A stretch of 63,999 nt of DNA, counting the filler, from Gonapodya sp. JEL0774 (Eukaryota): assembly GCA_027604505.1 (NCBI GenBank). It is 17 parts of 17 records of this genome, joined end to end, with 100 filler letters (N's around TTAATTAATTAA, not from the genome) between each part and the next. Parts side by side here need not be neighbours in the genome. Positions count along the whole stretch, not along the records: positions 22,761 to 26,438 come from JADIIX010001186.1; 16 more parts are not named here. One strand, given 5' to 3'. Both the position numbers and the translations under genes were made by a program. This document shows, piece by piece, positions 3,951 through 45,456 of the stretch (position 1 is its first letter; each line of letters starts with the position of its first letter). A model generated the notes under the pieces. The model was not told where the DNA came from. It saw only the letters and a list, made by a program, of their open reading frames with translations, and did not search any database.

Positions 3951-5851
3951 TCAGCGCGTAGTTGGTGCCATCTTTCGGAAATTCAGATTGAGGAGGGTAG
4001 TAGGATACAGAAGCTGGCGCGGCAGGGCCGCGTACGTCGAAGTCGAAGGGGACGGAGAGCGGTGGGGTAAGGGTGGACTATGAATACAGGAGCAAGTGCG
4101 GGTTAGGGCATAAGCAGTTCGATACGTAACGTCAAATGTGCAAGTCCTGATCTTCTGATTTACCTGACTTTGAGCATTGTAATCCCAGCCTCTGCTCTCC
4201 CACCTCGCACCAACCGCAAAACCGCCCGGTCTGTTCCCTGCACTCCGGACCCGAAGTGCCGCCGACCCATTCTGATCGCCAAACTGTCCCACATCCAGAC
4301 ACTCTAGAGGCACCACACCCTCCTCGCGCACAGACTGGTTCGACACATGGGGTACGCGGAGTCGCACCAAACCCCAGCCGTCGCGGAAGACCCGAATCAG
4401 GGTGACTGCAGTGGAAGGCTGGAGAGAAAGCTCGTCCACATTTGAAGAGATGTACTGTGTGGTCATTGGAGCGCAACGTGAAGTATATAATGTACATGGG
4501 TACTCTGCAGCGAACAAAGACAGACAACTAGCCAAGCGTACCTCTGTGACCGCCACTGCTTCAACGTTGCAATCAACGTAAGACGCATCGAGGAGTCCCA
4601 GTGGTGCAGCAAGATTGGCGAAAAACCACTGGCCGGGGATTTGTGGCGAGCGATATCATAAGTCGGGGAAACAATACGAGAAGCTGAATTTCGGGAGTAT
4701 CGAAGAAAGACACAGTACGAAAAATTCTCACATGCGGTTCCTAGTGAGGCATCCGATTCAAAAGTAGGAGAGAAAAGCAGGCATTTTGTTTCTTGCGATT
4801 TGTACACAGTTTCAGCCCGTTGGTGGGTATAGCACACCTTATTTCTGACCCCTTCGCTTCTGAATTCCGAGCTCAATGGAGGTGCCTCGTAAGTTCCTCG
4901 CCTGTCAGCATCCTTGCTCTGTTTCCGCTTTCGAATGAAGCAAAGTATCGCAAGGGGCAAAATGATAACCGTTGCAACACCACCCGCAGTGGCGCCTGCT
5001 ATAAGACCAGTGTTGGAAGGGGCGTCAGCAGGTGGAGAACCTGTCACCGTAGTGATAGGAGTAGTTGCAGATGAAGATGTAGCGGATGTTGTAGGGGGGA
5101 CCGTAGTGACGCTGGTCGTAGTGGTCGTAGTGGTAGACACGCATGTTGTCCCTAGACTTGGTGCTCCAGAAAGCGAACACGCCCTCGGCAAGCTATTTTG
5201 CGTGCAAAAGTAGAGCGAGGGGTTGCCACCCAACGTGCAGTTTTGGACGCTCGAAGGTATCTTGCCATCAACGCTTCCTGTAAGTAAATTGTCATTGAGT
5301 GATATTGCGACGAGGTTCTTAAGTCCGGACAGATCCGGTACTGAGCCGGTGAGCCGATTTTGGGCGAGCAGGAGCCCCTGAAGTGGCGTTTGATTTGCAA
5401 GGGCAGCGGGTATGGATCCGGTGAACGCATTTCCCTCGAGAATCAAGTCATATACAACAGGCAGGTCTGGGAGATCGGGTATTGGACCTGTCAAATTGTT
5501 ACTGGAAAGCAAGATAGCGTGTAGGGACGTCTGGTTCGCGAGCGAAGGGACCTGGCCCGTAAGCCCTGCAGAGGGAAGTGTGACAGAGAACGTCCGATTG
5601 TTTGGGTCGCAGGTGATGCTGCGTATGAAGCTCGCATCGAGGAATCCGCAACATTGTCCGACCGGCCAAGGGATCGCGAGCCCGCTCTGGGTGTATAAGG
5701 ATTCCCAGACGGCGCAATCATCTCGCTGAGATTGTGCGGTTGAGCTCGGGAGCGATACTGCAATAGCGAGAAATGCGAACAGACAGATAGGATCGAGCAC
5801 CGGGGTTCCGCCGGCAACTGCACGATCCCGGCACCAAGACAGTCTTCGCAT
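3951..5851 (-). CDS. LRR receptor-like protein: signal peptide, plant-type LRRs, Thr/Ser stalk, TM helix, cytoplasmic SH3; multi-exon, 3' end uncertain
   Basis: LxLxxNxLTGxIP repeats; TM GLIAGATAGGVATVIILPLAILCFI followed by RKRK; downstream exon YISSNVDELSLQPSTAVTLIRVFRDGWG...EEGVVPLECL (~4290-4455) fits the SH3 consensus. Confidence 0.8.
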
Positions 5852-14557: not shown

Positions 14558-15741
14558 GTTGTCGGTTTACTGTAGGAAATGGGAAAGGAGCTAGTAGTAT
14601 ATGGTATGTATTGCTAAGACACCTGGGAGAAGAGCTGTTTGTTTGTGATCAATTTGCTTTCATTCGTACCGATATACACTCTGTTCAAGGACGCTCGGTT
14701 GAGTAACACACATAGTGACTATGTAGCTGTGAAGGAGACCAGTGAATCAAGAACTGCAAATATTGAGTTGCATGAAGGTTTATCTGATAGATCTCTTGCT
14801 TGAGGAACTCGAAAGAATCTTGTGCTAGTCAGTCCTTTTGCGGTTTGACACATACTCGTCAGTGATGGCTGCCCACTAGGAAAAAACACCCGTCACTTGC
14901 TCAACCGCCATGAGCTGTCGCCGTCTCAGGAGCTCAAACGGAAACCACATTGAATATGAAACTGAAATGGCTGATGAGTGTCAACTGTGCAAATCTGACT
15001 GAGCGTTAAATTGAAAGCACACTGCACCTGGTCCCCATGGTCACTCAAGCTCTTCAAAAATGTCAATACCGACACCCACGTTCACTCCTGGGTNNNNNNN
15101 NNNNNNNNNNNNNNNNNNNNNNNNNNNNNNNNNNNNNTTAATTAATTAANNNNNNNNNNNNNNNNNNNNNNNNNNNNNNNNNNNNNNNNNNNNCAGGCGC
15201 GGGGACAGCACCTGGAACACACAGAGAGACCAACACCATGACGAAACACCACATTTATGGTATTAATTCGTGACTGCAACCGAGAAATCTTTTACAAATG
15301 CGCTCTCACCGTGCAAATCCGGGTCATCAGAATTGCTGCTGCTCTCCATGAGATTTCTGCTAAGATTTGCAACACGCAGCACCTCTTCGATAGCGTAATT
15401 GGTAGATTGATATGTTGCAAAGCTTATGGAGGATTTTGAAGAATTATTTGCGATGTACGGGAAGGGTGAACATGGTGTGCGGCAGGCGAAAAACCAGGGT
15501 TGCGTTGCAAGTGACTCAATTGTATTTGTCACAAATTGACTCATGAAATATATTCAGCATTATTGTACTACAGGAATGTGAAAATATCAGGCCAATCGCA
15601 GTCGATTTTACGAGTCAAACAAGCAGAGTTTTGTGCTCCCAATTCGCGCGCCTGAATTGGGAGGGCTCCCAATATTTTCCCTCATGCCACATACCTTGTG
15701 TGCACCAAAGTCGTGATAACTAAATTCTGCGCAACCTCTCT

Positions 15742-15960
15742 ATTGATGTGAAGTATCATTTTATTAGGGAACAGCTGCAGAAACGGTTGCTGAAATTGTC
15801 ATATTGTCCCACAAAGAGCAACACTGCAGATGTCATGACCAAACCGTTGTCAACGCCTGATTTTGAGCGACACTGCGCAGGGATGGGATTGGGAGCAGTT
15901 GGATAGTTGGCGTTGATTGGAAACAACACACTGGAGTGTTTTGTTTCAGGGGGAGTGTGA
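15742..15960 (+). mobile_element. Ty1/copia remnant: RNase H C-terminus plus polypurine tract
   Basis: IDVKYHFIREQLQKRLLKLSYCPTKSNTADVMTKPL...GMGLGAVG* (stop ends 15906), then AGGGGGAG-TGT at 15948-15958. Confidence 0.85.
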
Positions 15961-16170
15961 AGTCTTGGATGATACCATTGGTGACACAATAATTTGTATA
16001 CACTGGATTTGGACTCCGGAGATGATTTGGGGAAGTGGTTGGATGAGTCATCACTGTGGCCTGTGTGGCACAGCAGGTCAAAGTACATATAAACAGCCCA
16101 TTTTCCCATGTAGTGTGTGTTGTGTGAGAAAAGACAAGTTTGGAGTTCCAACATATAAGGGGACTCTGAC

Positions 16171-16413
16171 ATGCAAGTGCCCATAACTACTGCAGCCTAC
16201 GTCATCCACCAGCTTACCCAAATGGAAGAACTCATCATTGACCTCGGTTGTGGAGCAGCAGGATTTCGAGTTGCTGCCCTTTTGACCAATCGCAAGTACA
16301 TTGGGATTAAATTTGTCACTGATGTAGCTGGATCTGCTTTGAAGCACCTTAAACATTTGTTGAAGAGAAGGGGGCTCTTGCTGCTAAGTAGGCTTATAAC
16401 GGTTTCATCCTAG
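16171..16413 (+). pseudogene. Degenerate fragment resembling the C-terminus of an N6A/N4C DNA methyltransferase
   Basis: QVPITTAAYVIHQLTQMEELIIDLGCGAAGFRVAALLTNRKYIGI resembles the beta-class pattern KP..L...I...T..G..VLD.F.GSG....A....R..IGIE. An in-frame stop lies just upstream. Confidence 0.5.
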
Positions 16414-17017
16414 GCACTGTTTGTACACCTTGCCATTTAATTTGCACTTTATAGGTACATTGAATACACTACCTTGAAGTCTGTAGATGTGTTGACAGGT
16501 AAAGAGAACGTTCTCCCTCCACGCCTCAAGTGGAGACTGCCCACACTTTGTCAGTCAGCAACTCCACTCAAGACTGGTGTCATCGAGACTCGTTCTGCAA
16601 AGTGTCCACAAGACAAGGGTGACACTGAGGAGAATGTAGATGTGGGAGCTTCAGACCGCAAGGGAAAGAGAGTAGCACGTAGGCCTTCCTGCCTAACCCC
16701 TAGAGCTCAATGCTTCATTGAGAAATACTGCGTTGATGTACAGGCAAAGGATGGGTGAAGCAAATGTAGATGTAGGATTATCAATACATATTCAAACACC
16801 ATCTTTCACAAACCATTGAGGGCAAAAGATAAGAGGGAGAAGTTCATGTTGGATCTATAATGTACGTACAGATATGTAAGGAAACATGAAATAAGAGGGC
16901 TGTCCAGAGAAGTAATACTTAAGGGGCAAACAAAAATAAGTCAAGACAGAATATTCTCGGGCAGGGTTAAAACAGGATATGGAGGAGGGGTGGAGAAATT
17001 TTTGTGAAACAGGTTTT

Positions 17018-17098
17018 GCCACCATAGCTCAACAGGTTATGAGCCCGTACTGCTGACAGAGAGGTCACATGTTCGAACCCCAGTGGGAGGAAATTTTT
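17018..17098 (+). pseudogene. tRNA-like element (tRNA pseudogene or SINE head)
   Basis: A-box TAGCTCAACAGG, D-stem GCTC/GAGC, B-box GTTCGAACC and a T-run terminator; anticodon and T stems do not pair well. Confidence 0.55.
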
Positions 17099-17121
17099 CA
17101 AAGTGGTGGCATGCCAAACTA

Positions 17122-17395
17122 TGTTGAGATATGGGTGTTTTGACATTTCGGATGGCTCTAGCGCAACAGGGAGTGGGAATTCTGGGATATTAATGGAGCA
17201 ACATTACTCGCCGTAAAACTCTCTACAAGTTTGTCTTTTTCAGTTTTGTTGTAGTGTTGTTGGTTAGTGAGCTACACTAGGGAACATGGATAACTTGGTG
17301 CACACACTTCAGGATGGTGCTATGGTTGTCGGATAAACCAGATTAAGCTTTTTCTGTACGACGCGTTCGAATAAGTGAATCATGACCACTTAACA
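17122..17395. mobile_element. Solo LTR, copy 1, with 5-bp TSD AACTA
   Basis: Begins TGTTGAG, ends CTTAACA; AACTA on both sides; aligns along its length with 20822-21099. Confidence 0.9.
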
Positions 17396-18131
17396 AACTA
17401 TGAGTGTTCGACCATTAGAAAGGGAGATTTGTCTGGGTCAGGCAACCCTGAAGCAGAGATGCTGTCTTCAGGGGGCGTGTTAAGGATAAAGAGAGAATCC
17501 AGCACTCTGCCCCTGTACAGGTTTTGTCACCATAGCTTAACACAGTTGGTGTTCACCTGTCCTGTCAAATGTTCTTTCAACCCGAACATTTTCACCGCTC
17601 TCCATCCTCAGCTTCCACACCAGTACTCTGAATGTCCATTCTGCTCAGTTAGCTTTTTGTCCACAACCCTTGAGAAGCTCCATTGGCTTGAATTCCCCAG
17701 TCATAACGTCAAATTGGTTGCAGTGGTGAAGGTAGGAGTTTACAAAGGTCCTCCAGGCAGCAAATTGTCAACTCATTCCGGTTTTGAGACAATGGTGATT
17801 ATCCTGGGCTCATTACCTGTTGCAATTGTGGCTCTCTCTCTTATGTGGAACACGGTACAGTATAACCTGCTATCTCCAGCCGCAGTAAGTGCATACCATA
17901 CCCTCATTAGCTGCACGTCAAAACTGTCGTCCAGTACTGTTTGTGGGGCAGGGGGCAGTAGTGACATCACTCAATCAATACATGACACCAGGCACCAATT
18001 GCTTGACTATCTCTCCAATGGCATCAGCGTACTCTCTTCAGCAGTCCAAGCCCCTCCTCCATCTCCACCAGGAAATTTGAGGGTGGAGAAACACCCCCAA
18101 GAACGCGTTTAATCAGCATCAATGGAATCAT

Positions 18132-18497
18132 GTGATCCCAAAGATGAAATCAAAGTACCTGGTTCTGAAGGAACTCCCCCAATTGTCGTTTGTAAACCTT
18201 GTGGCCCGAATCAAGAAGATATACAAAACTGTCACCTATGCTTGGGACAAGAGTGGATTTGGATGGAATAGCACCAAATTTTTCATCACTGCAGCAGAAG
18301 GGGTCTGGGATCGTTTGAAGACTGAGGTGGGTGAGAACCGAGACTTGCAAGTGTCTGTGTGCAAAAGTTTCAATCTATGGATCTTCGGCTTCATGCACCA
18401 TTCAAATCAGCAGAACAAGAAGCGGGACAGCTACCATCCCGTCCAACCACCCTGGCCACTGTATCTGAAGGCAGCGGCAGTCTACTCTGGTCAGTAG
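18132..18497 (+). mobile_element. Myb/SANT-like domain fragment of the type carried by PIF/Harbinger transposons
   Basis: RIKKIYKTV...KSGFGWNS...ITAAEGVWDRL...PWPLY motif, in CpG-poor decayed context. Confidence 0.65.
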
Positions 18498-18659
18498 GTT
18501 GCACGTGGTAGGATGTCAAACCCAGTGAGCATCTGGATGATTCTGGCCGTGATGACACAGATCTAGAAGATGATGATCTGGAAAGAGTTATCAGTTACTC
18601 ATTTGGAGGTTTCAGCAGATTCTTGGGGGATCTTGAATCAACTCCATCTCACGCCCTGA

Positions 18660-18815
18660 CGAATCGAATACGAACCGAATATCAACGTAATCATAATCGC
18701 CCTTTTCGAACAAGCGAACATGATTCTGGAGTTTGTATCGAATATCGAATAATAAAATTGCTATTCGACTCGAATAGTGGCAACTTCTACGAATAACTGC
18801 GAATAATTCGAATAC
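18660..18815. repeat. Cluster of CGAAT(A)/TATTCG motifs, possible DNA-transposon subterminal region
   Basis: Many CGAAT(A) copies, some in inverted orientation, in ~155 bp. Confidence 0.5.
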
Positions 18816-18981
18816 TTTAGCAAAACATTAGCTAAACTACTCCTCATCATTTTCCACTTCCTCCACTTCCATATCTGAGTCNNNNNNNNNNNNNNNNNNN
18901 NNNNNNNNNNNNNNNNNNNNNNNNNTTAATTAATTAANNNNNNNNNNNNNNNNNNNNNNNNNNNNNNNNNNNNNNNNNNNN

Positions 18982-22760: not shown

Positions 22761-22792
22761 CCCATCCCATCCCATCCCATAATCCCCATCCC
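22761..22792 (+). repeat. (CCCAT)n tract at contig start
   Basis: cccatcccatcccatcccat...ccccatccc; truncated by the assembly break. Confidence 0.9.
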
Positions 22793-22874
22793 TTCGCCAA
22801 CTCACATAAAACCCATCGAACGCATCGATCAGCTCATACACAAAAACGCGCAACTCGAATCATCCCAATACTCA

Positions 22875-23716
22875 ATGTCCCCAGCCACTGATTACAATGT
22901 GTTTTTCGGGCGGATGCCCTATCCAAACCGGCTGCCCTCAATCGTAGAACAAACTCGTGGCCAAGGTACAGGAGCGATAGTGCAGAAGTTCGAGCAAGTC
23001 ATCGCCAGCACATTGCTGACTATGGGACAGAAGTTATCGAGCAGTCAAGTCAAATCCGAAAGAGAGGTCAGCGTCATTATCAGGCTCAGGAAATATTGTT
23101 CATCATCTTACATACTCTCTACGTCTGTAGATCACATCCAGGCTCAGCGAGCTAGAAAAAAGGCTTGATAAAGGCTTGCAAGCCATTGCGTCTCTCAAAG
23201 CGTCCGTAGATGCCTTGGTAGGAACGTTTGTGATGCGAATCTCCCTCATACACATCTCATCTCGTTTTGTTATCAGCGTGACGCATCCCTTCGTAACGAC
23301 GAATCACCTGTCTTGAGGAGAATCGACGAAATAGAACAGAAACTTGAACGGCGCTTAGAGGTTTCGGTAAGCTACCAACTGTCTCCTCACTCGGAGAGAG
23401 ACCATCACTCACTGAAAGAACAAACTCCCTTTTCAGCATGATTCTAATGCGCTTTCGCAGATTCTGTCCAGAATGGACGAGTTTGAACGTAAACACAAAC
23501 CTGCGGTGAGAGTGAACCGTTTTGGACTCAAAACTTGTATCATCAAATAGCTCACTGTTGCTTTGAAAACAGAAGACCTCGCGCAAGGAAGTCGACACTA
23601 TCAGCACTCGCTCAAGTAGAGCCCGGATAGATTTGGAGCCTAATCACACTACTCGAGAGCGTATAAGTAACAGGCGAAGTGCTCGATTACAACAGATAGG
23701 GCGGCGGAGTATTTAG
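22875..23716 (+). CDS. 5-exon coiled-coil protein of unknown function
   Basis: Exons 22875-23066, 23131-23217, 23277-23366, 23437-23505, 23573-23716. Four phase-0 GT..AG introns of 64, 59, 70 and 67 nt give one open frame; exons 2-4 each contain an R[LIM]xExE[KQR][KR]-type motif. Confidence 0.75.
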
Positions 23717-23723
23717 GAGTATT

Positions 23724-24158
23724 TTATCGTAGTTGTGTGACTTGCATAAACGATTGTGTCTTTGATGTATTGTCAATAGCTGGTACTGAATTAGGAGGTG
23801 TTTCCAACTTGAGTGACACAACATCGTTGGTTTGAAGAGGAATAACGTCTGAGCATTCAACAGCAACTCGTCCAGCGCGACCGTCTGTCAGAAGAGGCCA
23901 TGATGAATATGGCTCGCCATTCAGTAGGACGACGAGGCTGATATTACCAGTAAAGAGAGACGATGTACCGCATAGGACGAGGCGACCACGCACGTCATAG
24001 AGGCCATCGCGCGGTGCTGTATACCGTCCAAAGTTGAAAGTTCCCCCGCCTCGCACATATACGGGAACAAATCCGGTAACTGCACATGAACCAGATTGCA
24101 ATACGTTACCATGAATTGCCATTGCCCGTGCGGATGCCAAGTCAGAGTTGAACGCCAT
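23724..24158 (-). CDS. C1q/TNF-like beta-sandwich protein (putative virion fibre or receptor-binding head)
   Basis: GRYTAPRDGLYDVRG...VVLLNG...SDVIPLQTNDVVSL...SFMQVTQL follows the C1q pattern G.FTAP..GLY.F...L..GD.V; intronless. Confidence 0.7.
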   Translation of the reverse strand: MAFNSDLASARAMAIHGNVLQSGSCAVTGFVPVYVRGGGTFNFGRYTAPRDGLYDVRGRLVLCGTSSLFTGNISLVVLLNGEPYSSWPLLTDGRAGRVAVECSDVIPLQTNDVVSLKLETPPNSVPAIDNTSKTQSFMQVTQLR

Positions 24159-24204
24159 GATACCTTCTTTTTTATGTTTTTGAAGCGTTTACGTCATAGA
24201 GAAA

Positions 24205-24744
24205 ATGAACGCGAATACAACACGACTCCGTGAGGTCATGGTTGGTGTCCACAGTACTGCGAGAGATAGAGTCGCATTTCCATCCCGTGCAGAGTTCAGA
24301 GTCAAACTGCCAACACCTCTTCCCAATGTGGTGTCAGTTGAGCTGTTGGGGATCACGGTCCCCATAGACAACGTATTTGCTGCAACGCCATTTATTGCAC
24401 TCGATATTCGTGAACTGAACTCATTTGTTGTCGGTACTACCCACTTTCCCGTATTTGCTGTTGTACAGACTCACTGTATGCCTCCCTCAACTCCTCCAAA
24501 TATATTTTGGTCAATGGACAAGAGAATGGCTGAACACTGTATAACGGTGTTTGAGTCACCTCGCGATAAATTGGATACGTTTACCGTGCGACTCCTCGAT
24601 CACAACGGCGCTCCACTCGCATTGGGGTCGGATGTTGAAGGAACTCCAATTGATGAGACCAAGCAAGTGCATTTGTTTCTCAAAGCGTGCGTGCAAACAC
24701 CCGATACAAGCTTCATAACTTCACGTTACTCGGGTTACACTTGA
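24205..24744 (+). CDS. Putative Nucleocytoviricota penton/minor capsid-like single jelly-roll protein
   Basis: VHSTARDRVAFPSRAEFRVKL..PLPNVVSVELLGITVP, PFIALDIREL, VFAVV, FESPRDKLDTFTVRLLDHNGAPL match the pattern IDS..RD...YP....F.V.L....NV.SIEL...P / PY..L.I.EL / F..P...L..L.I...D..G, recalled from giant-virus proteins; intronless. Confidence 0.72.
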   Translation: MNANTTRLREVMVGVHSTARDRVAFPSRAEFRVKLPTPLPNVVSVELLGITVPIDNVFAATPFIALDIRELNSFVVGTTHFPVFAVVQTHCMPPSTPPNIFWSMDKRMAEHCITVFESPRDKLDTFTVRLLDHNGAPLALGSDVEGTPIDETKQVHLFLKACVQTPDTSFITSRYSGYT

Positions 24745-24776
24745 GACATTTTTTACCTTTGGTCTTCACACCTGCT

Positions 24777-25499
24777 ATGAAAACATCGACTGTTGCATTC
24801 ATTTTGTCGGGCGTGTTATGCCTGGCACTCATAGCTACAATCGTCACCTTGGTCATACTCTATGTCGTTCGTCGCAAGACACAAGAATCTCCATCCCCAT
24901 CGTCCAACTCACCGTCGCCGTCGCCGTCATCGTCGACGTCCAATACAGGGTCGCCGAGCATGAGTGACTATCCTTCAGGAGGGACTTATGCCCCAAACTC
25001 CCCAGAACTAACAAAATTGTTAAGCGATGCATGTAAAGTAGCTGGTATCGAGCAGTCTTGGGCCACAAATCAAGCTATTCACGACTTGATTCAGAAAGAG
25101 TCTGGTGGCCGCGTAGGCATTCCAAACTATACGATGTCTAATTGGTTACCTTCACCCTTCAACATCAGCGACCTTCAGAATCGGACAGATTTATGGCCAG
25201 CATTGTGGGAAAAAATGAAGTCCGGTGATCCCGCCTATCGAGGGAGTACGGGTACCCAATCCAGGCGTGACTGCATAGGTCTCTTTCAAGTCTGCTTCGA
25301 TTCAGGATCCACATCTCGAATGCTCAAAGACAGTTCCGGAGCACCTGCACTCGGCAACCCACTGGCAGAGGCCGTAGGTGGCCTTCTTGGCGTTAAGGCG
25401 GTGTATGGAACTCCGGAGATATTGCTATACGGTGGAACGAAACCCGACGGATCCTGGTGGGGTGGATATAGCTCCGCATCTGGATGGGACGGATGGTAG
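24777..25499 (+). CDS. Membrane-anchored lytic transglycosylase/lysozyme-like (SLT/GH23-like) protein
   Basis: N-terminal TM helix followed by RRK, Ser/Pro linker, then LIQKESGG (catalytic Glu motif), IGLFQV, NPLAEAVGG...VYG; intronless. Confidence 0.72.
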   Translation: MKTSTVAFILSGVLCLALIATIVTLVILYVVRRKTQESPSPSSNSPSPSPSSSTSNTGSPSMSDYPSGGTYAPNSPELTKLLSDACKVAGIEQSWATNQAIHDLIQKESGGRVGIPNYTMSNWLPSPFNISDLQNRTDLWPALWEKMKSGDPAYRGSTGTQSRRDCIGLFQVCFDSGSTSRMLKDSSGAPALGNPLAEAVGGLLGVKAVYGTPEILLYGGTKPDGSWWGGYSSASGWDGW

Positions 25500-25546
25500 G
25501 TAGTACAGTCTGATGACGATTGCAGAATCATGTTCTGGTGAATCTT

Positions 25547-25648
25547 CATCCCAATCACCCATCCCCATCCCCCATCCCCATCCCCCCATCCCACATCCCA
25601 CATCCCACATCCCATATCCCACATCCCACATCCCACATCCCCATCCTC
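25547..25648 (+). repeat. (CCCAT)/(CCCACAT)n tract upstream of the RING gene
   Basis: Roughly 100 bp of CCCCAT/CCCACAT units ending ~30 bp before the ATG at 25680. Confidence 0.9.
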
Positions 25649-25679
25649 ATACCATTTTCCAGCTAAAAAGTCCACTCTA

Positions 25680-26438
25680 ATGAGCCAGTTCGACGCTTTG
25701 ATATCCAATACTGGAGATCGCGTACCACCTCCTTCTTTCAGCATGAATGCCGATCCAGCGATAGTCGTCGTCGTCCCCCTGGATTTTGCCAGGAAACTCT
25801 TCGTCACTCTATCTCGAGTGATACTCGATAGACCAACGCAGAAGCAACTTGGCCTTTTCACTTTCAGCGACACAATGGTGGACTGGTGTCGAACCTTTGG
25901 CCAAGCAATGCAGTCCACACTCACTCGCAACCTGGTGCGAAAAGTCATCTCGGGTGACCAGGAGTGTGAAAAGGCATTTCAGGGCATCATCAAATGGTTT
26001 TACATCCATAATGCTACTCGACTATCCAAACCAAGCGTTCGACACCCAGAATACCTGCCATCCTTTACCGTTATCGCCCAACAGATGCTATGCGATATCT
26101 GCTTGCAGCCTCTTCTGCGACCACATGTCGTTTGTGGAAATGGCCACTTGCGCTGCGAGTCATGTCTGTTTGATATACAGTCACATAGCCTCAAAGAAGC
26201 CGCGTTGTGCGCGCTTTGTCGAGAACCGTCGTTGCTCGCTTCGATACGGCTGCACAGTCTCGACGCACTTTTCGACGGATTGCCGGTTGCGTGTACGAAG
26301 TGCGAATTGAAGATGTGTAGGCGGAATTGGGAGTCCCACTCGCTCTCATGCGTACGGTGCAATTGGTGTGAAGAATGGACAGGTGGCTACTCGCTCGTTA
26401 CCCATCGACACTCGCATTGCACCGCTGCCCAATCGCGT
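25680..26438 (+). CDS. RING finger + TRAF/SIAH-type zinc-finger protein (putative E3 ligase); 3' truncated
   Basis: CDIC...CGNGHLRCESC...CALCR (C3HC4), then LPVACTKC...WESHSLSC and CNWC...HRHSHC; intronless over 759 nt. Confidence 0.85.
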
Positions 26439-29458: not shown

Positions 29459-30214
29459 CTACGCAGCAAACTTATCAATGTCCACAATTGGGCACTCTGG
29501 CATCACCCCAACCGGACTCGGAGTGTTATGTTTCGAATACCACACATCTATTGGTCCCGCCACCAAGCGCACAAACTGCCTGTACACAGTACCAGATCCA
29601 TCGTCCAGCTCAGAGTCAAGAGGAAGGGACTCATGCGGGGTCTTGTCCGTCATCCAATAAATTCTCTGGGGTTCCAAAGTGGTGGGTGTCCCCAGTATGT
29701 GATGTATGTCACCCAACTGGCCATCTTTACCGACGATGGATGCGTTGAGGATGACGTTGGGGTAGACTCGGGAGGAGTTGGGAACGGTGGACGCGAAGTA
29801 GATACCACCAAGGCGGGTGTGAGACCCGGTGTCAACCATGCCGCGTCCCCATCTGACGAAAAATGGTGTGAATGGCCTTCCTGTATCATTGGATCCCAAG
29901 CGAGCCAAGGGATCACCCTCGCGAACGACCGGACTGTCGATGTGTAGTCCTGGTCTGCGATGTGACTTGCCCACAGGTACACGCCGTTCATCGATGGTGA
30001 GGTAAGCGATCCCGTTTCGCTGGCCGATGAGTGTTGCGAGCATGTCTGCGTAGCCAGCGCATTCCCTTGGCATCGTCCCACGGAGATCCTCGCAGCGGAC
30101 GGGCATCATATTGATGTAAATGTCTTGGGGAGCAGGGAAAGACGTAGTCCAGAGGGCCTTGAATGATTTTTCGACAAAGGGGACGTTGCGGGATCGCCAT
30201 TCGTGTTCTCGCTT
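29459..30214 (-). CDS. Uncharacterised 2OG-Fe(II) oxygenase-like protein; 5' truncated, intronless
   Basis: Frame is open to the contig edge: FPAPQDIYINMMP, AYLTIDE, HRRPGLHID, GGIYFAS, IYWMTDKTPHESLPL, YRQFVRLV give an HxD...H...R arrangement. Confidence 0.65.
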   Translation of the reverse strand, partial: KREHEWRSRNVPFVEKSFKALWTTSFPAPQDIYINMMPVRCEDLRGTMPRECAGYADMLATLIGQRNGIAYLTIDERRVPVGKSHRRPGLHIDSPVVREGDPLARLGSNDTGRPFTPFFVRWGRGMVDTGSHTRLGGIYFASTVPNSSRVYPNVILNASIVGKDGQLGDIHHILGTPTTLEPQRIYWMTDKTPHESLPLDSELDDGSGTVYRQFVRLVAGPIDVWYSKHNTPSPVGVMPECPIVDIDKFAA

Positions 30215-30505: not shown

Positions 30506-32059
30506 ATGCCTCGCGCCCCGCGTGTCGCTCTTCCTCCTGTGCCCAACCCAAACGCTGCCCTCAACATCGAGCAGCTCCGCGTCACGTACACAAGGCAAGA
30601 AATCGTTGAAGGAAACTATAAGTTCCTTATAAATATTTGTCGGCGTTACAATCGTTCCGATCCTGTTCCCAAATTGGTGGTGACAGGCACGGCGGATACA
30701 CTCCGAGCCCGACTCCTCGGACTTTTTCCCGAAGTCCCTCAATCTGAATCATTCGATCTCACGCAGCTTCGCGCACAAATCAATTTAGAATCCGTAGATA
30801 CAACAGATAAAGCACAATTACTCAGCCTTGCTCGCAAATATAACACATCTAACCCCGAAACAAAGCTCCCACTAACAGGAACACTGGTTTCCATCCGCAA
30901 AGCATTTAAAAATCTTCTACAGATAGAAGCAATCCCCGAAGCTGTACCTGCCCCAGCAGTCAGATTTGCAGACGACGTACCTCCCCCTCAGGACACGGAA
31001 ATCCCCGTGCTTGAGCAACCAAAACTCAAAGCAATTACATTAGCTCCAGCTAGACCCGACAACCCTATAAAGAACGCAGTTGCTGTCGATTCTGATCCTA
31101 ACAATAACGCTGCGAGACGCCAGCGGGAATTACTTGACAACGTTCTCCTTTCTCAAGCATTATTAGACTCAGGTCCACACGACCCAAACGAGCTCGGTTT
31201 CCAACAAAATACTACATTCAATTACTTTCGGTCCAGTAACGAGATAATCGGCGCTCAGATCAAGAACCCAGTTCTTCGTATCATTGAGAACCGCCGAAGG
31301 GTCCATCGCGAAAATTTTGCCGAGACATATCGCGAAATCCTTGCTGGTCCACACGAACCTCTTCCCCAAGCTGTTTGGAAAGAGATCGCATTTGGATCCT
31401 ACGTTTCCTTAGAAAAGTGCTTAGACGATAACGTTCAAATCGCTCTATCGGACCCGGAGGTCCAATATATTTCAGGCACTAACGCCGCGATAGTCCTTGG
31501 TGACCCGCGACCAAAAATCCGAATCAACAACTTCACGACTTGGTTCAGCGCCTGGCAGACGTACTCCTCTGCATCATCATTTCTATTCCCCGAACTCCGA
31601 ACGTGGAGTATCCTTGACAATTATGCAAAACATATATCCCAACTTGTACGAATGTACGGGGAACACAACTGGTCCCGTATTTACCAATATGACGTTGCGC
31701 GCCGCCAAAGAGTTGCCGCTGACCCAACGTTATCTCTACTCGACCAAAATGTCCTCAGCCCGTCCCTGTACCTCTCGGCACTCACAGCTGCCCTACCGAA
31801 GACCGGACAAACAAACGTCCGCACGAAAGGGACCCCCTACAAATCACACGGTGGTCCCAAACGTACGAATGACATCTGTAACAACTGGAATGAAGGCCGA
31901 TGCGCTGATGCCGGACCATGCATTAATGGACGGCAGCACATCTGCAAGCGCTGCAGCGGTCGCCACCGTGAACTCCAATGTCCACAAAAGAACAACGCCG
32001 GTAACAACTTTAGACCAGCTCAACCAGGGCGTCCCGGCCCCGCTGCCGCGGGCGCTTGA
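30506..32059 (+). CDS. Gag-like ORF1 with Cys/His zinc fingers
   Basis: INNFTTWFSAWQTY...WSRIYQYDVARR and CNNWNEGRC...C..GRQHICKRCSGRH...C, typical of DIRS/Ngaro ORF1. Confidence 0.85.
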   Translation: MPRAPRVALPPVPNPNAALNIEQLRVTYTRQEIVEGNYKFLINICRRYNRSDPVPKLVVTGTADTLRARLLGLFPEVPQSESFDLTQLRAQINLESVDTTDKAQLLSLARKYNTSNPETKLPLTGTLVSIRKAFKNLLQIEAIPEAVPAPAVRFADDVPPPQDTEIPVLEQPKLKAITLAPARPDNPIKNAVAVDSDPNNNAARRQRELLDNVLLSQALLDSGPHDPNELGFQQNTTFNYFRSSNEIIGAQIKNPVLRIIENRRRVHRENFAETYREILAGPHEPLPQAVWKEIAFGSYVSLEKCLDDNVQIALSDPEVQYISGTNAAIVLGDPRPKIRINNFTTWFSAWQTYSSASSFLFPELRTWSILDNYAKHISQLVRMYGEHNWSRIYQYDVARRQRVAADPTLSLLDQNVLSPSLYLSALTAALPKTGQTNVRTKGTPYKSHGGPKRTNDICNNWNEGRCADAGPCINGRQHICKRCSGRHRELQCPQKNNAGNNFRPAQPGRPGPAAAGA

Positions 32060-33851
32060 GCTTGCGTACTTTCGACCGCAACGCTCACTTTTTGAGCAAA
32101 GCATACCAGAAGATACCAATATACCCATCCTGTTATCCGGTCCTTCAACTATTGATACTGTATTAAAACCATATACGTACACACCTGACGAACTGGCAAT
32201 TATTGCCACCCTCCCAACAGACGTGTTCAAGGTGGGGCCGTCACCCATCAACGTGAAATCTCTCCTCTCCCTTACCACCGACCACCCAAACAAAGATTAT
32301 ATTGCTTACATTACACAAGGCCTACAACATGGCTTTTCTTGGGGCCTGAACGGTCTCCACACACCTTTCGTCCTGGACAATCTCAAATCTAGTAACTTAG
32401 CACCAGACAAAATCGATGAAAACATTGCGGAAGAACTTTCCCTTGGTCGTATGACAGCCACAGAAAACATACCACATCTTCGTGCTCGCGTTTCCCCAAT
32501 TGGGCAGGTGCCTAAACGTGACTCAGACAAAGTTCGGAATATATTTCATCTCTCTGCCGCCCCCCCGGGGATCAACTCGGTAAACGATGACATTAACCCT
32601 GAAGAATTTCGAACACAATATGAAGGCATCAGCACAATTATCTCCTGGATCCGTTATCTCGGACCCAATTGTTGGGCCTGGAAGGTGGATGTCAAATCCG
32701 CCTTTCGACTGCTCCCGCTACGGGTTCTCGACCAACTCTCCCACATTTTTCAGTGGTATAACAAATATTATGTCGATCACAATCTATCATTTGGGGGACG
32801 ACCCTCGCCGGCGCTTTGGAATCGCCTCGCCGACCTCATATGTTGGATTGCGAATCGCCGGATCATCATACCTGGCGCGATCGGCCACTATATGGATGAC
32901 TTCTGGGGGCTGTTCCGCGGCTCATTTGCTGAAGCATACGAATCATTTTGTGGCTTTCTTGCCTTACTATCACTGCTAGGCATACCAGTAGCTCCTGAGA
33001 AGCTGGTTTCTCCGACACACCACATCACCTTGATCGGTTTTGCACTGAACACCGAAACCCTGTGCATCACTATTCCTGACGAGAAAATAAAATCTTTGCT
33101 CAACGAATTTGCCCGATGGCAAAATCTACAAAAATGTACTCTCAGTGACTTACAATCCCTAGCTGGGTCACTCATCTGGTACGGACAAATCCTACCACAT
33201 GCTCGCACATTCACACAAGAATGCCTCCTCCGAACCAGACCTACCGCTCGGGGAGGTCGCACACGACATGTTTCCGTCTCAATGAAAAACGAACTGACCT
33301 GGTGGGCCCAAGCCCTCCGCGTCTGGCCGGGTCTGGACCTGACTTCCGATAGAGAATGGATCCAACCGGCCCACTCCTTCTTTTACACAGACTCCACACC
33401 GCTGGCTGGTGGTGCTACCATACACTCCAAATTTACACGCATCTCCTGGCCTGTTTCTGTGACCACAAACTCATTTGTCACGATTCAAGTCCTTGAACTA
33501 GCCATGGTATGGGTGGCAATCTCTACATTTGCGAGCTACATTGTCCACCGCCGCTTCATATGCTACACTGATAATGAGTCCAACGTAAAAGCTTTCGATA
33601 AAGGGGCCAGCGAAAATCCCCTTGTCCACTCCATCATTCGGGAGCTCTACTGGGCGCAGCTTCGACTGGAAGTCGAACTCCGCCTGGTGTTCATCCCTGG
33701 CCTCACAAACAAAGTTGCGGATCTAATCTCCCGCACCCCATCTGACGAATTCGCCATAAAAGCGCTACCCCACCTCCAATTTGAGTCCGCACTGATTCCA
33801 CCATTCACAGACCCTTCACTACGGATATTGTTTACCCGCGGCGCACCTTAG
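31497..33851 (+). CDS. Reverse transcriptase + RNase H (DIRS/Ngaro pol); start uncertain
   Basis: VSPIGQVPKR, RNIFHLS, KVDVKSAFRLLP, LSFGGRPSP, YMDDF, LQSLAGSL, YTDST, IQVLELAMV, YTDNES, NKVADLISR; uninterrupted. Confidence 0.95.
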   Translation: MVTRDQKSESTTSRLGSAPGRRTPLHHHFYSPNSERGVSLTIMQNIYPNLYECTGNTTGPVFTNMTLRAAKELPLTQRYLYSTKMSSARPCTSRHSQLPYRRPDKQTSARKGPPTNHTVVPNVRMTSVTTGMKADALMPDHALMDGSTSASAAAVATVNSNVHKRTTPVTTLDQLNQGVPAPLPRALELAYFRPQRSLFEQSIPEDTNIPILLSGPSTIDTVLKPYTYTPDELAIIATLPTDVFKVGPSPINVKSLLSLTTDHPNKDYIAYITQGLQHGFSWGLNGLHTPFVLDNLKSSNLAPDKIDENIAEELSLGRMTATENIPHLRARVSPIGQVPKRDSDKVRNIFHLSAAPPGINSVNDDINPEEFRTQYEGISTIISWIRYLGPNCWAWKVDVKSAFRLLPLRVLDQLSHIFQWYNKYYVDHNLSFGGRPSPALWNRLADLICWIANRRIIIPGAIGHYMDDFWGLFRGSFAEAYESFCGFLALLSLLGIPVAPEKLVSPTHHITLIGFALNTETLCITIPDEKIKSLLNEFARWQNLQKCTLSDLQSLAGSLIWYGQILPHARTFTQECLLRTRPTARGGRTRHVSVSMKNELTWWAQALRVWPGLDLTSDREWIQPAHSFFYTDSTPLAGGATIHSKFTRISWPVSVTTNSFVTIQVLELAMVWVAISTFASYIVHRRFICYTDNESNVKAFDKGASENPLVHSIIRELYWAQLRLEVELRLVFIPGLTNKVADLISRTPSDEFAIKALPHLQFESALIPPFTDPSLRILFTRGAP

Positions 33852-41639: not shown

Positions 41640-44600
41640 TATGTGTTTTTGACAGTAGGTAATTGTGTCAATAATTTCAAAACATCCATCATACAGGTCT
41701 GGGGTGTGAATTTCATGGCATGTGTTGTAGGAGAACCAGATATGGATGGAAATAATCACCAATAATATCTGCTTTAAAGATTCTGTGTATCATAGGAATG
41801 AGAATGACTTCCAACTGGCCTAAAATCTGATATGATTTGTTGAATGTCTGATGGCGAAGTCTGTACTTTTATTGGGGAGCGGGAGCTCTTTACCTCTTTT
41901 GATGATTCCACAGAGACAAGGAGGGTGCTAATAGTCTCTAATAATCCAGTTGCAGCCACTAAGCGACTGTCAACATCCTCCTCATCCTTGACAAGGTCAA
42001 GAATGCGAATCACAGAATCTCTCTGATAATACTACAGCTTCAGAAATTGAAATAATCTTGGAGAAGGTGAAAAACTTGTTCTCACAAGTTGGCTCCCCAG
42101 CTGCACTGCAAAAGGGATGAGCTCATCCCCAAACAATTCCACAACAGAATCCATAACTATCAAACATAAAGTTTTTCCTGTTAAGCTATAAGATTCTGGG
42201 GAAAAAAAAGAAGCATTGCCTCACCAGATGCAAGTGCATCATGATCAGCATCTGCCATTAGATTTAACAAAGCATTCATGAGTGCTGCATAAACAGAATA
42301 TGATTGTGTTTGCAATTTAATATCAGAATTGATTTGAATTGCCTACAAGCAGCATGTGGTTTGATCTGACTTTGAATGCGCTCATCTTGAAGCAGGGCTT
42401 GCAGGGCCAGGCAAGATGACACTCTCACAGGGAGCTCAACATCTCTCATGCAATATTGCACTCCCTAAGAGACATCCAAAATAAGTATTGTTGCATGCCA
42501 ATAGGTTCCAGATCAAAAAAACAACCTCCAGGATCAGGTGCAGCTGAGAATCAGAAGAATGGATTCTCAATTCAGGAACAGAGTTCTCAAATGCAACAAT
42601 GACCCATTTCTTACTGAGCTGTCAGTCCATGATATGTCAGTGAATCTTTCCACCAGATCACAAGCCTCAAAATAAGCTTTGTCAATACTCTCACAACTTC
42701 ATCAAAGTTGATTGAGCTCACTTGCATTCTAAGCCAAGGATACTGACTTCTGAAGTTGTGGAATGCATTTACCAGAAGAACTTGCTCTATTTCAGATTCC
42801 TTAACTGGAGATTTCTGAAGAAAACCATGAATTTCACTATATTGGCAGCCTGGAACAGAAAAAACAACTGCACACCTCTGAAAGCAAGAAGTCTGAAAGC
42901 TATGGCAAGGAAAAATGAACATCTTGAGCTTCGATTGTTCAAGTCACAAGTAAAATGTACCCAAAGAACTCACACATCCCATCATGCTCAACAAGCCAAA
43001 TTTTGACCTTGATTGTTCTCTTGTAAGCTCTCCAGTCTGAAACTCTGGCAACCTGGTGTTGAGAAATGCAAGAGCTGCAGTGAAGCTCACTTTCCTCCGC
43101 TCCTTCACAAGAACTGTAAGAAGTTGCAATGCAGCAGTTGTGTTTGAATTGATATCCCTGTCTGGATCAAGGTGATCAGCAAGGTATTCCCTGGGGCTTA
43201 AATGATTAGATAAAAATATTTGAGTCCAAAGAGTTAATTTTTAAGATCATCTGCATCAACACACTCTTCCTGCCATTGCTGTATGTCCCTGTCTTGAATG
43301 GATGTCAGTGGGAAGATCAAGTGCTTTGAAACAACACTTTCAAAAAGGAAGGCAAAGATCCAACTACATTGACTCTGTGTACTCACAGCAATCAAGTTAT
43401 TCAAATGAGATTTCAGTAATGCCCATGTTTGCTTATATTTGACACTGGATGAATTTAATGAATATAGGAATTAGAGAAAGGGTTGTCTTCCAAATTGGCA
43501 GCAATCTTAAACAGTCACCACTCAGTAAGGAACATCAAGATAAAATTCATTCCACGGGGCATAATCCAGAGATTTTGAGATACCCAAGAATCTATTTGTG
43601 CCATATAAATTTTCATGATTGATGGAGCAAACTCTGTGAGGAGCAGTGTGGCAAATACTTCATGATGTAATGCCCTTTTTGATTGGAAAGCTGGGTTTGC
43701 GTATCTATGGGAATGAAACACAATGTGTACACCCCACATGTGCACAACATTCCCAAAACACAAAATACCTGACAATCAGTTTGTGCACAATAAACTGTGC
43801 CCACTTTTTGGCTTTGCACCATGGTTCTTTGACCCTGTCATCCTCACATATTCTCAGCACATCTGTGGGAAGATCACGCTTGATCACTTGACCAACTAAG
43901 GATCCCCATGCAACAAACGATTGGGGCTGTTGAAGCGCTGTTGGCATCTCCATCTTAGATTTTTCCGGAGCATACTATTAGAATGACGTTCCCAGAAAGC
44001 ACTTAATTGCCTTACCTGAATAATTCTAGCATAGATCTTCAGAACAATTCTCAAGACATCTCCTGCATCTGTCGTGTCACTTCCAATCATCTGTGGACCA
44101 ATCTTCAACAGTTCTGGTATCGCAACATTCAACAGTGTCTCAAAACCTTCATCTCGGTTTTCAGCTGCCCTCCACCTGCATGCATAAATGATAACTGCTT
44201 CCGCTGAGGAAAACTGGACTCTCTCTCACCTGTAAATCTTTGCGACAGCAAGTAAGCAGTTAAGTCCCGCCCTCACACTCTCTATCTCTTGTATACTCAG
44301 AAGTAGCATAGACTTCTGCAAATAGTCAGGCCACTGAGAAGGGTAATCAATGTCCAAAACGCGGCTAAGTGCAGCAAGGATGCTCGCTCTGATGGCAACG
44401 TGAAAATTGTAATTTAGAAGAGAAAGGATAGAGTAAATGCAAAGGAAAATGAACCTCGCTTGTCGTGGAGATTTCACGAGGGCCTGTCAAAAGATTCTCA
44501 TTATTGGTGTGTGGTCGAATCGCGTTGCTTGCGAAAAGTCACCTCATGGAAACGTCCGCGTAAGTGATCTTTTTCAGCACTCTCAATGGGGTGCTCAGAA

Positions 44601-44953
44601 TGAGCAGGATCCCAACATTGTTGAATGGTGTTCTTCAGATATACGGAAGCTACCAATTGTGGATTGAGTTCCACACCGCGAACAAACTTTCGCAGGTCCG
44701 TCACACACCAGCAACACGCGCATCGTGGTTCACCGAATCCGAAGCTACACACTCAAGAAGGAGAGAGCAGAACCCTGTTTGAACTGAAAGCTGATATCGT
44801 GCAAAGAAAGGTGACGGGAGATCGACAAGGATGAGTAGCCATCCTGCAACAACTAACCAGTTTCAATTGCTCCTCCGCCTGTTTCCGAACATCATCATCC
44901 GAGCTAAACGTTCCCAGGAGAGCGCTATACAGAATCTTAGCCGAATCAGACAT
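41640..44953 (-). CDS. NMD5: Importin-7/8 (Nmd5/Sxm1) karyopherin; many exons, 3' truncated
   Basis: RKQAEEQLK, ASVYLKNTI, DYPSQWP, PWCKAKKWA, YPWLR, DVELPVRVSSCLALQ. Confidence 0.88.
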
Positions 44954-45456
44954 TGGGGAGCTCAGGAATGAGAAAATGGGGGAAACACAGCATGGGACCA
45001 CAGCAGGGACGAGGGATCCCAAGCGACATTCATCGTATATTTTTCACCACGGAGACAAAGATACATGCACTTAGTTCTCGACTAACGTGAGTGTGAAAAT
45101 CGGAATAACGATCCCGCGCGAACTGACTCAGAACAAGCTAAGAATGACGAAAAGCTGGAAAATGGCACTCACGAGTGATCGAGAGTCCGAGCCTGTGCGC
45201 GTTCTCGTTGAGTTTAGTTGTGTCAAAGCTACCAGCAAGAGTGAGCTTGACGCCTGGGCGGAGACTGGATCGCGCACATTGAGTAACACGTGCGAGTCGG
45301 AATTAGCATTTCANNNNNNNNNNNNNNNNNNNNNNNNNNNNNNNNNNNNNNNNNNNNTTAATTAATTAANNNNNNNNNNNNNNNNNNNNNNNNNNNNNNN
45401 NNNNNNNNNNNNNCCAACATACCCACTGCGGGGGTGATCATCGACCTAGTATACCA

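What the first reader, a model, noticed from the sequence alone, without database searches (positions are those of the whole stretch)
24777..25499. Membrane-anchored bacterial-type lytic transglycosylase next to the penton-like gene
Seen: TM anchor, Ser/Pro stalk and a lysozyme-fold domain with the ES motif (KESGG) and GLFQ motif, 32 bp downstream of the penton-like gene. Established: SLT/GH23 enzymes cleave beta-1,4 linkages of GlcNAc-containing glycans, and some GH23 members act on chitin. Inference: either a virion-membrane or egress enzyme repurposed to open a chitinous wall, or an antibacterial enzyme of bacterial or phage origin. I do not know of this architecture described for a fungal virus.
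Basis: partly seen in the sequence, partly recalled or inferred. Interest (0 to 1): 0.75.

Follow-up and report, generated by a model that had tools for sequence, protein, structure and literature searches.

The report
Phage-type lysin in fungal virus cassette
An intact gene for a membrane-anchored protein with a predicted lysozyme fold sits beside a capsid-vertex-like gene on a small contig, likely a piece of a large DNA virus of an aquatic fungus; its relatives are likely cell-wall-cutting enzymes of bacteria and their viruses, and its altered active site suggests it would now cut or bind the fungal wall instead.

Summary
In detail: a 240-aa ORF with an N-terminal membrane helix, Ser/Pro stalk, E108 in KESGG and G168LFQ lies 32 bp after a penton-like gene. 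The window is a chain of unlinked 3.7-kb contigs, so only 22761-26438 is real context. A confident model (pLDDT 89) has the lysozyme fold, but no solved structure is close (best Z 6.1-6.4) and Pfam SLT is not matched. The protein belongs to an unnamed family of 211 clusters. Where I could place them, they come from myxobacteria, large myophages and virus-like contigs, and are often fused to peptidoglycan-binding domains. The membrane-plus-stalk layout is common there (36 of 148), so it is inherited, not new. The only eukaryote-labelled relatives are two Gonapodya prolifera proteins. This clade has a very long stem, keeps the catalytic Glu, loses a family-invariant Tyr and gains an Asp and a Cys pair on the cleft hairpin. 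Best reading: a virion-membrane glycosidase of an endogenous fungal DNA virus, retuned to a host GlcNAc glycan (0.4). Rivals: still antibacterial (0.25), or binding/structural only (0.2). Substrate, expression and virion location are untested.

The parts
24777..25499 (+). Target ORF, 240 aa: membrane anchor, stalk, lysozyme-fold domain
24783..24869 (+). Hydrophobic helix, residues 3-31, followed by RRK; predicted N-out/C-cytosolic signal-anchor
   Evidence: topology inferred from the positive-inside rule (established knowledge)
24879..24962 (+). Ser/Pro/Thr-rich stalk, about residues 35-62
   Evidence: sequence
24978..25487 (+). Lysozyme-superfamily domain, residues 68-237
   Evidence: family HMM envelope, E 6.5e-39 (the HMM includes the target itself); model and fold search
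25098..25100 (+). Glu108, candidate catalytic acid at the end of the central helix (ES motif)
   Evidence: invariant in 119 of 119 aligned homologues; helix ends at this residue in the model
25269..25295 (+). Remodelled hairpin D165-C173 around GLFQ: Asp165, Cys166 and Cys173 are clade-specific
   Evidence: Asp 0 of 147, Cys 0 of 147 and Cys 0 of 147 at these three positions in homologues; shared with P0002
25389..25391 (+). Gly205, in place of the family-invariant Tyr
   Evidence: Tyr in 119 of 119 and 143 of 143 motif matches among 148; Thr in both Gonapodya proteins
24205..24744 (+). Penton-like (single jelly-roll vertex protein) gene, 179 aa
   Evidence: PDB 6ncl_a6 P1 E 0.009; DUF5901 E 2.6e-4
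23724..24158 (-). C1q/TNF-like head protein, 144 aa, divergent from the penton gene; possible fibre or spike head
   Evidence: Atlas feature search 0.94, 190 shared features with a C1q cluster; no Pfam match
25680..26438 (+). RING-finger ORF, cut by the contig end
   Evidence: Sina_RING E 1.5e-4, below cut-off; no homologues found
22875..23716 (+). Possible four-intron gene (59-70 nt, all phase 0) for a 195-aa protein; weakly supported
   Evidence: shuffles reach the score in 45 of 200, 49 of 500, 34 of 500 and 16 of 500 by setting
22761..26438 (.). The whole contig, 3678 bp, GC 0.49, CpG o/e 0.99: the only real context

Best explanation
The gene encodes a membrane-anchored protein with a predicted lysozyme fold that is likely a virion-membrane glycosidase of a large DNA virus integrated in a Gonapodya-like fungus, and it would cut a GlcNAc glycan of the host wall rather than peptidoglycan. 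Shown: intact ORF, helix plus stalk, membership of an unnamed lysozyme-fold family, retained Glu108, clade-specific cleft changes, penton-like and C1q-like neighbours. Inferred: an ancestor virus took the gene, anchor included, from a prokaryotic virus; the helix sits in the inner viral membrane with the domain on the cytosolic (capsid) side, held out by the stalk near a vertex; Glu108 protonates a beta-1,4 bond; the gained Asp165 could serve as a second acid, turning a one-Glu transglycosylase into a hydrolase of chitin or chitosan-like wall; the job would be release from walled sporangia or hyphae more than entry.
For: Fold: pLDDT 89, pTM 0.88 from 122 sequences; all 50 listed VIA rows are lysozyme-superfamily, top Z 6.1. 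Family: 211 clusters at E<=1e-3; E108, G111, G114, N117, G168, Q171, E198 kept. Viral context: penton P1 match, C1q-like head, 32- and 46-bp gene spacing, no introns in the three genes. G. prolifera is reported to hold NCLDV gene islands (PMC5294986) and two Monoblepharidomycota genomes have major capsid genes (PMC13533422). Anchor polarity: 3 positive residues after the helix against 1 before, as in 27 of 36 short anchored homologues. Shift: stem of 2.31 changes per site, Tyr205 lost, Asp165/Cys166/Cys173 gained. Precedents: PRD1 P7 is a viral-membrane transglycosylase (PMC5380687); chloroviruses encode chitinases and a chitosanase and carry a wall-degrading virion protein (PMC8145301); DslA shows a lysozyme fold changing substrate through cleft changes (PMC7511926).
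Against: No activity, expression or virion data. Family context points to peptidoglycan: PG_binding_1 in 20 and LysM in 11 of 122, baseplate, amidase, VanY and M23 neighbours. The GH23 chitinase ranks below the transglycosylases (Z 4.9-5.1). Mycodnaviridae are hypothesised to enter wall-less spores, so no entry enzyme is needed; PBCV-1's own chitinases and chitosanase are not packaged. A long stem and loss of an invariant Tyr also fit lost activity. Viral identity rests on one penton-like gene with weak scores; no major capsid, ATPase or polymerase gene is on the 3.7-kb contig, and no related eukaryotic-virus locus was found. The annotated G. prolifera models lack the anchor, and P0003 lacks the GLxQ hairpin. 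The model leans on the family alignment and is weakest (pLDDT 70-83) across the remodelled part.
Confidence: 0.4

Rival explanations
1. It is still a peptidoglycan-cutting enzyme, carried by the virus as cargo or kept by the fungus as an antibacterial or nutritional lysozyme.
For: Every placed relative is prokaryotic or phage and many carry peptidoglycan-binding domains; best structural matches are MltE, Slt and gp144; Glu108 and GLxQ are kept; fungal muramidases appear among solved structures (8b2e, 8b2h).
Against: The charge pattern predicts a cytosol-facing domain, not a secreted one; the cleft differs at positions nearly invariant in the prokaryotic members; the gene sits 32 bp behind a capsid gene.
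Confidence: 0.25
2. It has lost catalysis and serves as a glycan-binding or structural virion membrane protein, for attachment or as a membrane-capsid link.
For: Family-invariant Tyr, the 93% Asn and the SSA motif are replaced; long stem; one paralogue model lacks the hairpin; PBCV-1 has membrane-anchored minor capsid proteins near the vertex (PMC9617893).
Against: Glu108, Ser109 and five other invariant residues survive a 2.3-substitution stem and are shared by the copies at 60-66% identity.
Confidence: 0.2
3. The contig is a prokaryotic virus or a chimeric contaminant, or a functionless relic with no bearing on fungal viruses.
For: Short unplaced contig; anchored homologues lie in prokaryotic virus-like contigs; C1q-like neighbours are mostly phage clusters; the intron gene is only weakly supported.
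Against: Closest relatives, at 60-66% identity, are in the G. prolifera assembly, one on a 183-kb contig, against about 35% for the best prokaryotic ones; RING gene and penton of eukaryotic-virus type; contig GC equals that of the other contigs; ORF intact; none of 120 homologue loci holds a similar penton, C1q or RING gene.
Confidence: 0.15

Closest known systems
Family 1 lytic transglycosylases (GH23): E. coli MltE, Slt70, P. aeruginosa Slt, phiKZ gp144
   Same: Lysozyme fold, ES glutamate at the end of the central helix, GLxQ hairpin; best structural matches (Z 5.7-6.4, rmsd 3.0-4.0, 89-107 aligned).
   Different: No Pfam SLT match; about 60 residues between Glu and GLxQ; 12-24% identity; an Asp is present next to the hairpin; product chemistry unknown.
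Unnamed family found here (myxobacterial PG-binding/LysM fusions, myophage baseplate-region proteins, short anchored proteins of virus-like contigs; e.g. UFOVP114_47, P0016)
   Same: True sequence family, E to 3e-20 by profile, 35% identity over 169 columns with P0016; same anchor-stalk-domain layout in 36 of 148.
   Different: Target clade is eukaryote-associated, long-branched, lacks the invariant Tyr, has Asp165/Cys166/Cys173 and a different C-terminal loop. No member has been characterised as far as my searches show.
PRD1 P7, viral-membrane lytic transglycosylase of Tectiviridae
   Same: Membrane-associated lysozyme-fold wall enzyme in a penton-bearing virus lineage (PMC5380687 passages; PRD1-group genomes share a transglycosylase, PMC5894146 passages).
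   Different: Bacterial host; weak structural rank only (BFVD E 1.3 with the poor model); P7's anchor is C-terminal (recalled).
Chlorovirus wall-degrading enzymes (chitinases, chitosanase, A561L)
   Same: Large eukaryotic DNA virus using glycosidases on a walled host (PMC8145301 passages).
   Different: Different enzyme families; no GH23, lysozyme or transglycosylase word in two giant-virus glycan papers.
Ralstonia ChiC (GH23 chitinase) and Bdellovibrio DslA
   Same: Lysozyme-fold enzymes with shifted substrate; matched at Z 4.9-5.1 and 5.9.
   Different: No sequence match; their second acids were not mapped onto the model here.

Membership tests
Lysozyme superfamily | Two-lobed fold with central helix and beta-hairpin floor | tested here: met
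   Model pLDDT 89; 50 of 50 listed VIA rows are superfamily members, Z up to 6.1-6.4; Foldseek gave no E<=1e-3
Lysozyme superfamily | Catalytic Glu in an ES motif at the C-terminus of the central helix | tested here: met
   E108-S109, helix H39-48 of the model, invariant in 119 of 119; feature as defined in PMC7511926
Family 1 lytic transglycosylase (SLT, GH23) | Match to the SLT profile (PF01464) | tested here: not met
   No match for target; 1 of 122 family members at E 0.11. Atlas features point to SLT clusters at 0.93 with 160 shared, under the 170 mark
Family 1 lytic transglycosylase (SLT, GH23) | GLMQ-type hairpin motif (motif recalled) | tested here: met
   G168-L-F-Q171; G and Q invariant in the family
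Family 1 lytic transglycosylase (SLT, GH23) | Single catalytic acid, no second carboxylate | tested here: inconclusive
   No acid at the two recalled lysozyme positions, but Asp165 is gained one residue away; coordinates could not be measured
Family 1 lytic transglycosylase (SLT, GH23) | Cleaves peptidoglycan to 1,6-anhydro-MurNAc products | not testable with these tools
   needs an assay
GH23 chitinase (ChiC type) | Closest structural and sequence neighbour is ChiC, with its second acid | tested here: inconclusive
   Z 4.9-5.1, about 1 to 1.5 below MltE/Slt; no sequence hit
Unnamed family | Invariant E, G, G, N (ES.G..G.PN), G and Q (GLGQ), E (EA.G) | tested here: met
   all kept
Unnamed family | Invariant Tyr after EA.G and the SSAT lead-in to GLGQ | tested here: not met
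   Gly205; RDCI instead. Hence a variant, not a typical member
Nucleocytoviricota / Mycodnaviridae | Double jelly-roll major capsid, A32 ATPase, PolB and other core genes; placement in the marker tree | not testable with these tools
   3.7-kb contig holds none; no genome held
Nucleocytoviricota / Mycodnaviridae | Single jelly-roll penton of PBCV-1 P1 type | tested here: inconclusive
   E 0.009 to 6ncl P1 and sub-threshold DUF5901; not folded; polinton-like viruses have related pentons (recalled), so the virus class is open

The most novel reading that the evidence does not exclude
A fungal giant virus captured a membrane-anchored lysin from a prokaryotic membrane-containing virus, kept it beside its penton and fibre-head genes as a vertex module like that of PRD1, and rebuilt the cleft (new Asp, new disulfide, lost Tyr) into a chitin or chitosan hydrolase: a phage-style wall-breaching device for leaving or entering walled fungal cells, and a new lysozyme-fold glycosidase subfamily.
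Probability: 0.3. Interest if true: 0.8.

Novelty: new variant of a known kind. Interest (0 to 1): 0.55.

Why it matters
How large DNA viruses get out of walled fungal cells is open: the Mycodnaviridae paper proposes infection of wall-less spores and names no lytic enzyme in the text I searched. This gene gives one small soluble domain, one catalytic residue and a short list of clade-specific changes, so the question can be tested with a single expression and a substrate panel. It also defines an unnamed lysozyme-fold family of at least 211 clusters that Pfam misses, and a case of prokaryote-virus to eukaryote-virus gene flow. If the enzyme proves dead or still antibacterial, it remains a usable marker for viral inserts in monoblepharid fungi but is of modest interest.

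Tried and rejected
Profile scans of the domain gave nothing useful: Pfam (a GH25 hit at E 0.18 on a fragment was dismissed), PHROGs, NCBIfam, PDB by sequence. tblastn against phages and plasmids gave only E>=2 noise; the best-looking Streptomyces hit lay on the opposite strand of the annotated gene. The 3-sequence model (pLDDT 53) was too poor for PDB Foldseek and was used only as a lead. No close relative of the target in IMG/VR or JGI metagenomes, nor of the penton-like, C1q-like, RING (122) or P0092 (93) proteins; these word-based searches see close relatives only. P0092 looked like a possible giant-virus protein by eye but could not be placed and groups with myophage rows. Two candidate capsid genes beside anchored homologues had no informative PDB match, so I cannot say those viruses are membrane-containing. 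The tree does not resolve the donor: FastTree and IQ-TREE give different weak sisters, and its group labels are my own reading of the loci. The four-intron gene failed a loose shuffle control and passed only marginally under settings chosen afterwards. No sequencing run was listed, which is no evidence on expression. Earlier scan notes: none. No complex was predicted, as neighbourhood alone gave no reason. Context from other contigs of the window was rejected as unlinked.

Full report
Observation. Window 24777-25499 (+) translates to an intact 240-aa protein: a hydrophobic stretch at residues 3-31, RRK, a Ser/Pro stalk, KES at 107-109 and GLFQ at 168-171. It starts 32 bp after a 179-aa ORF. 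The window is 17 contigs of about 3.7 kb, sorted by size and joined by linkers, and no genome is held. Only 22761-26438 is context.

The contig. It carries a C1q/TNF-like head gene (23724-24158, minus; Atlas 0.94, 190 shared features; no Pfam match), the penton-like gene (PDB chain 6ncl_a6 'P1', E 0.009 over 130 residues; DUF5901 E 2.6e-4), the target, and a RING ORF cut by the contig end. P1 is the name of the PBCV-1 penton (PMC9617893, passages); that 6NCL is the PBCV-1 capsid and DUF5901 a giant-virus family is recalled, and the code was not found in that paper. A possible four-intron gene at the left end would show a nuclear location, but shuffles matched its score in 45 of 200, and in 49, 34 and 16 of 500 under settings chosen afterwards: suggestive only.

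Relatives. The 5.8-billion search gave 2 hits among 2094 candidates, both Gonapodya prolifera hypothetical proteins at 66% and 60% identity, on 183-kb and 7-kb contigs. Neither model has the anchor and each has an internal gap; mis-annotation is possible, not shown. A profile of the three found 211 clusters at E<=1e-3, 82 at 1e-10 (150 listed, 148 besides the two). The profile also held P0002's unrelated N-terminus, but the listed matches centre on the domain. Pfam has no model for the domain; 20 of 122 aligned members carry PG_binding_1 and 11 LysM (29 of the 148, long or partial, were left out of that alignment). GTDB gave 29 loci, mostly Myxococcota and other deltaproteobacterial MAGs plus a few archaeal and CPR contigs. 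IMG/VR gave 6 and 5 loci, two contigs shared; in L002 the gene lies upstream of baseplate wedge genes. Metagenomes gave 103, of which 80 were kept. An N-terminal hydrophobic segment is present in 46 of 148, and 36 are short proteins laid out like the target. Such forms lie in virus-like gene strings next to amidase, VanY, M23 or SGNH genes (14 loci read, 62 proteins scanned). None of the 120 loci holds a match to the window's penton-like, C1q-like or RING proteins at E<=1. So the family is prokaryotic and peptidoglycan-linked, and the architecture is inherited.

Structure. With 122 sequences the domain folds at pLDDT 89.1, pTM 0.88. Foldseek finds no PDB match at E<=1e-3. VIA-align lists 50 rows, all lysozyme superfamily: P. 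aeruginosa Slt Z 6.1 (rmsd 3.8, 106 aligned), phiKZ gp144 6.1, Bombyx lysozyme 6.0, DslA 5.9, MltE 5.9; the GH23 chitinase ChiC 4.9. The second look puts MltE at 6.4. These Z values are middling and tied, so the superfamily is supported by their unanimity and by the motifs, and no subfamily is singled out.

Active site. E108, G111, G114, N117, G168, Q171 and E198 are invariant in 119 homologues and kept. Changed in the target and in the Gonapodya copies that cover the site: SSAT to RDCI before GLxQ, Asn (93%) to Ser176, and the invariant Tyr to Gly205 or Thr. Among 147 motif matches no homologue has Asp at the 165 position or Cys at 166 or 173. The stem to the Gonapodya pair is 2.31 changes per site, with unresolved placement (85 rows, 138 columns, P0003 left out).

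Mechanism. Three positive residues follow the helix and one precedes it, as in 27 of 36 short anchored homologues. By the positive-inside rule the domain would face the cytosol, which in an internal-membrane virion is the capsid side, and would not be secreted. With the penton and fibre-head neighbours this favours a virion membrane protein. A fungus has no peptidoglycan, the catalytic core is conserved and the cleft is rebuilt, so I commit to a glycosidase retuned to host GlcNAc glycan, used in release (0.4). Antibacterial activity (0.25), binding or structure only (0.2) and contaminant or relic (0.15) remain.

Known work. G. prolifera has NCLDV gene islands (PMC5294986, passages). Mycodnaviridae are described from zoosporic fungi, with capsid genes in two Monoblepharidomycota, and are proposed to infect wall-less stages (PMC13533422: abstract, first part of Results, Discussion). 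Its text has no transglycosylase, lysozyme, chitinase or penton, nor do the 4 of 10 supplement files that could be read. PRD1 P7 and P15 are viral-membrane transglycosylases (PMC5380687, passages; PMC5894146, passages). Chloroviruses degrade host walls, though their chitinases and chitosanase are not packaged (PMC8145301, passages). Motif definitions and substrate shift come from PMC7511926 (passages); GH23 background from PMC12855814 and PMC7150955 (passages). I found no report of a transglycosylase-type enzyme in a eukaryotic virus in searches (listings only) or in word look-ups in PMC10583209, PMC11161782, PMC10120064, PMC11291939, PMC9614988 and bioRxiv 2026.07.15.738767; the library lacks most subscription journals.

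Verdict. A real, intact gene: a divergent eukaryote-associated member of an unnamed prokaryotic lysozyme-fold family, probably in an endogenous large DNA virus of a monoblepharid fungus. It works like a virion-associated lysin; it is not a profile-level SLT member. New variant of a known kind, interest 0.55.

Noticed in passing
whole window: 17 unlinked contigs of 3.5-3.7 kb in descending size, joined by 44 N + TTAATTAATTAA + 44 N; neighbourhood claims across linkers are void.
   Followed up: yes
window 29459-30109 (-): Intronless 216-aa ORF matching PHROG 8970 (unknown function) at E 1.4e-20, on a different contig; possible second viral or horizontally acquired gene.
   Followed up: partly
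window 30506-33851 (+): Overlapping gag-like and reverse-transcriptase ORFs (RVT_1 E 3e-5), resembling a DIRS-type retrotransposon (type recalled).
   Followed up: no
window 25558-25644 and 22761-22790: CCCAT/CCCACAT-type repeats upstream of the RING ORF and of the left-hand gene, flanking the three-gene C1q-penton-lysin cassette; meaning unknown.
   Followed up: partly
window 4463-5851 (-) and 55266-56399 (+): Two similar signal-peptide, leucine-rich-repeat, Ser/Thr stalk, membrane-helix proteins on separate contigs: a receptor-like family.
   Followed up: no
window 15194-18881 and 41640-45313: Contigs with CpG observed/expected near 0.5 and lower GC, against 0.99 for the target contig; possibly methylated repeats.
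   Followed up: no
P0002 residues 123-161: LEM-like stretch (Thymopoietin E 3.8e-4; LAP2 E 0.04) in the N-terminal part of the G. prolifera model, probably a fused neighbouring gene.
   Followed up: no
L049, L056, L112, L048, L033: Short anchored family members repeatedly lie near an SGNH/GDSL hydrolase-like gene in virus-like contigs: a possible deacetylase-plus-lysin module.
   Followed up: partly
L042 (6837 bp): Contig appears terminally repeated, so possibly a complete small circular virus genome carrying the anchored family member P0016.
   Followed up: no
L026, L031, L032, L029: Family members in archaeal- and CPR-labelled MAG contigs among housekeeping genes: a peptidoglycan-type enzyme in small-genome lineages.
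   Followed up: no
P0092: Anchored homologue with two Cys-rich repeats before the domain, on a 6-kb contig of unknown type.
   Followed up: partly
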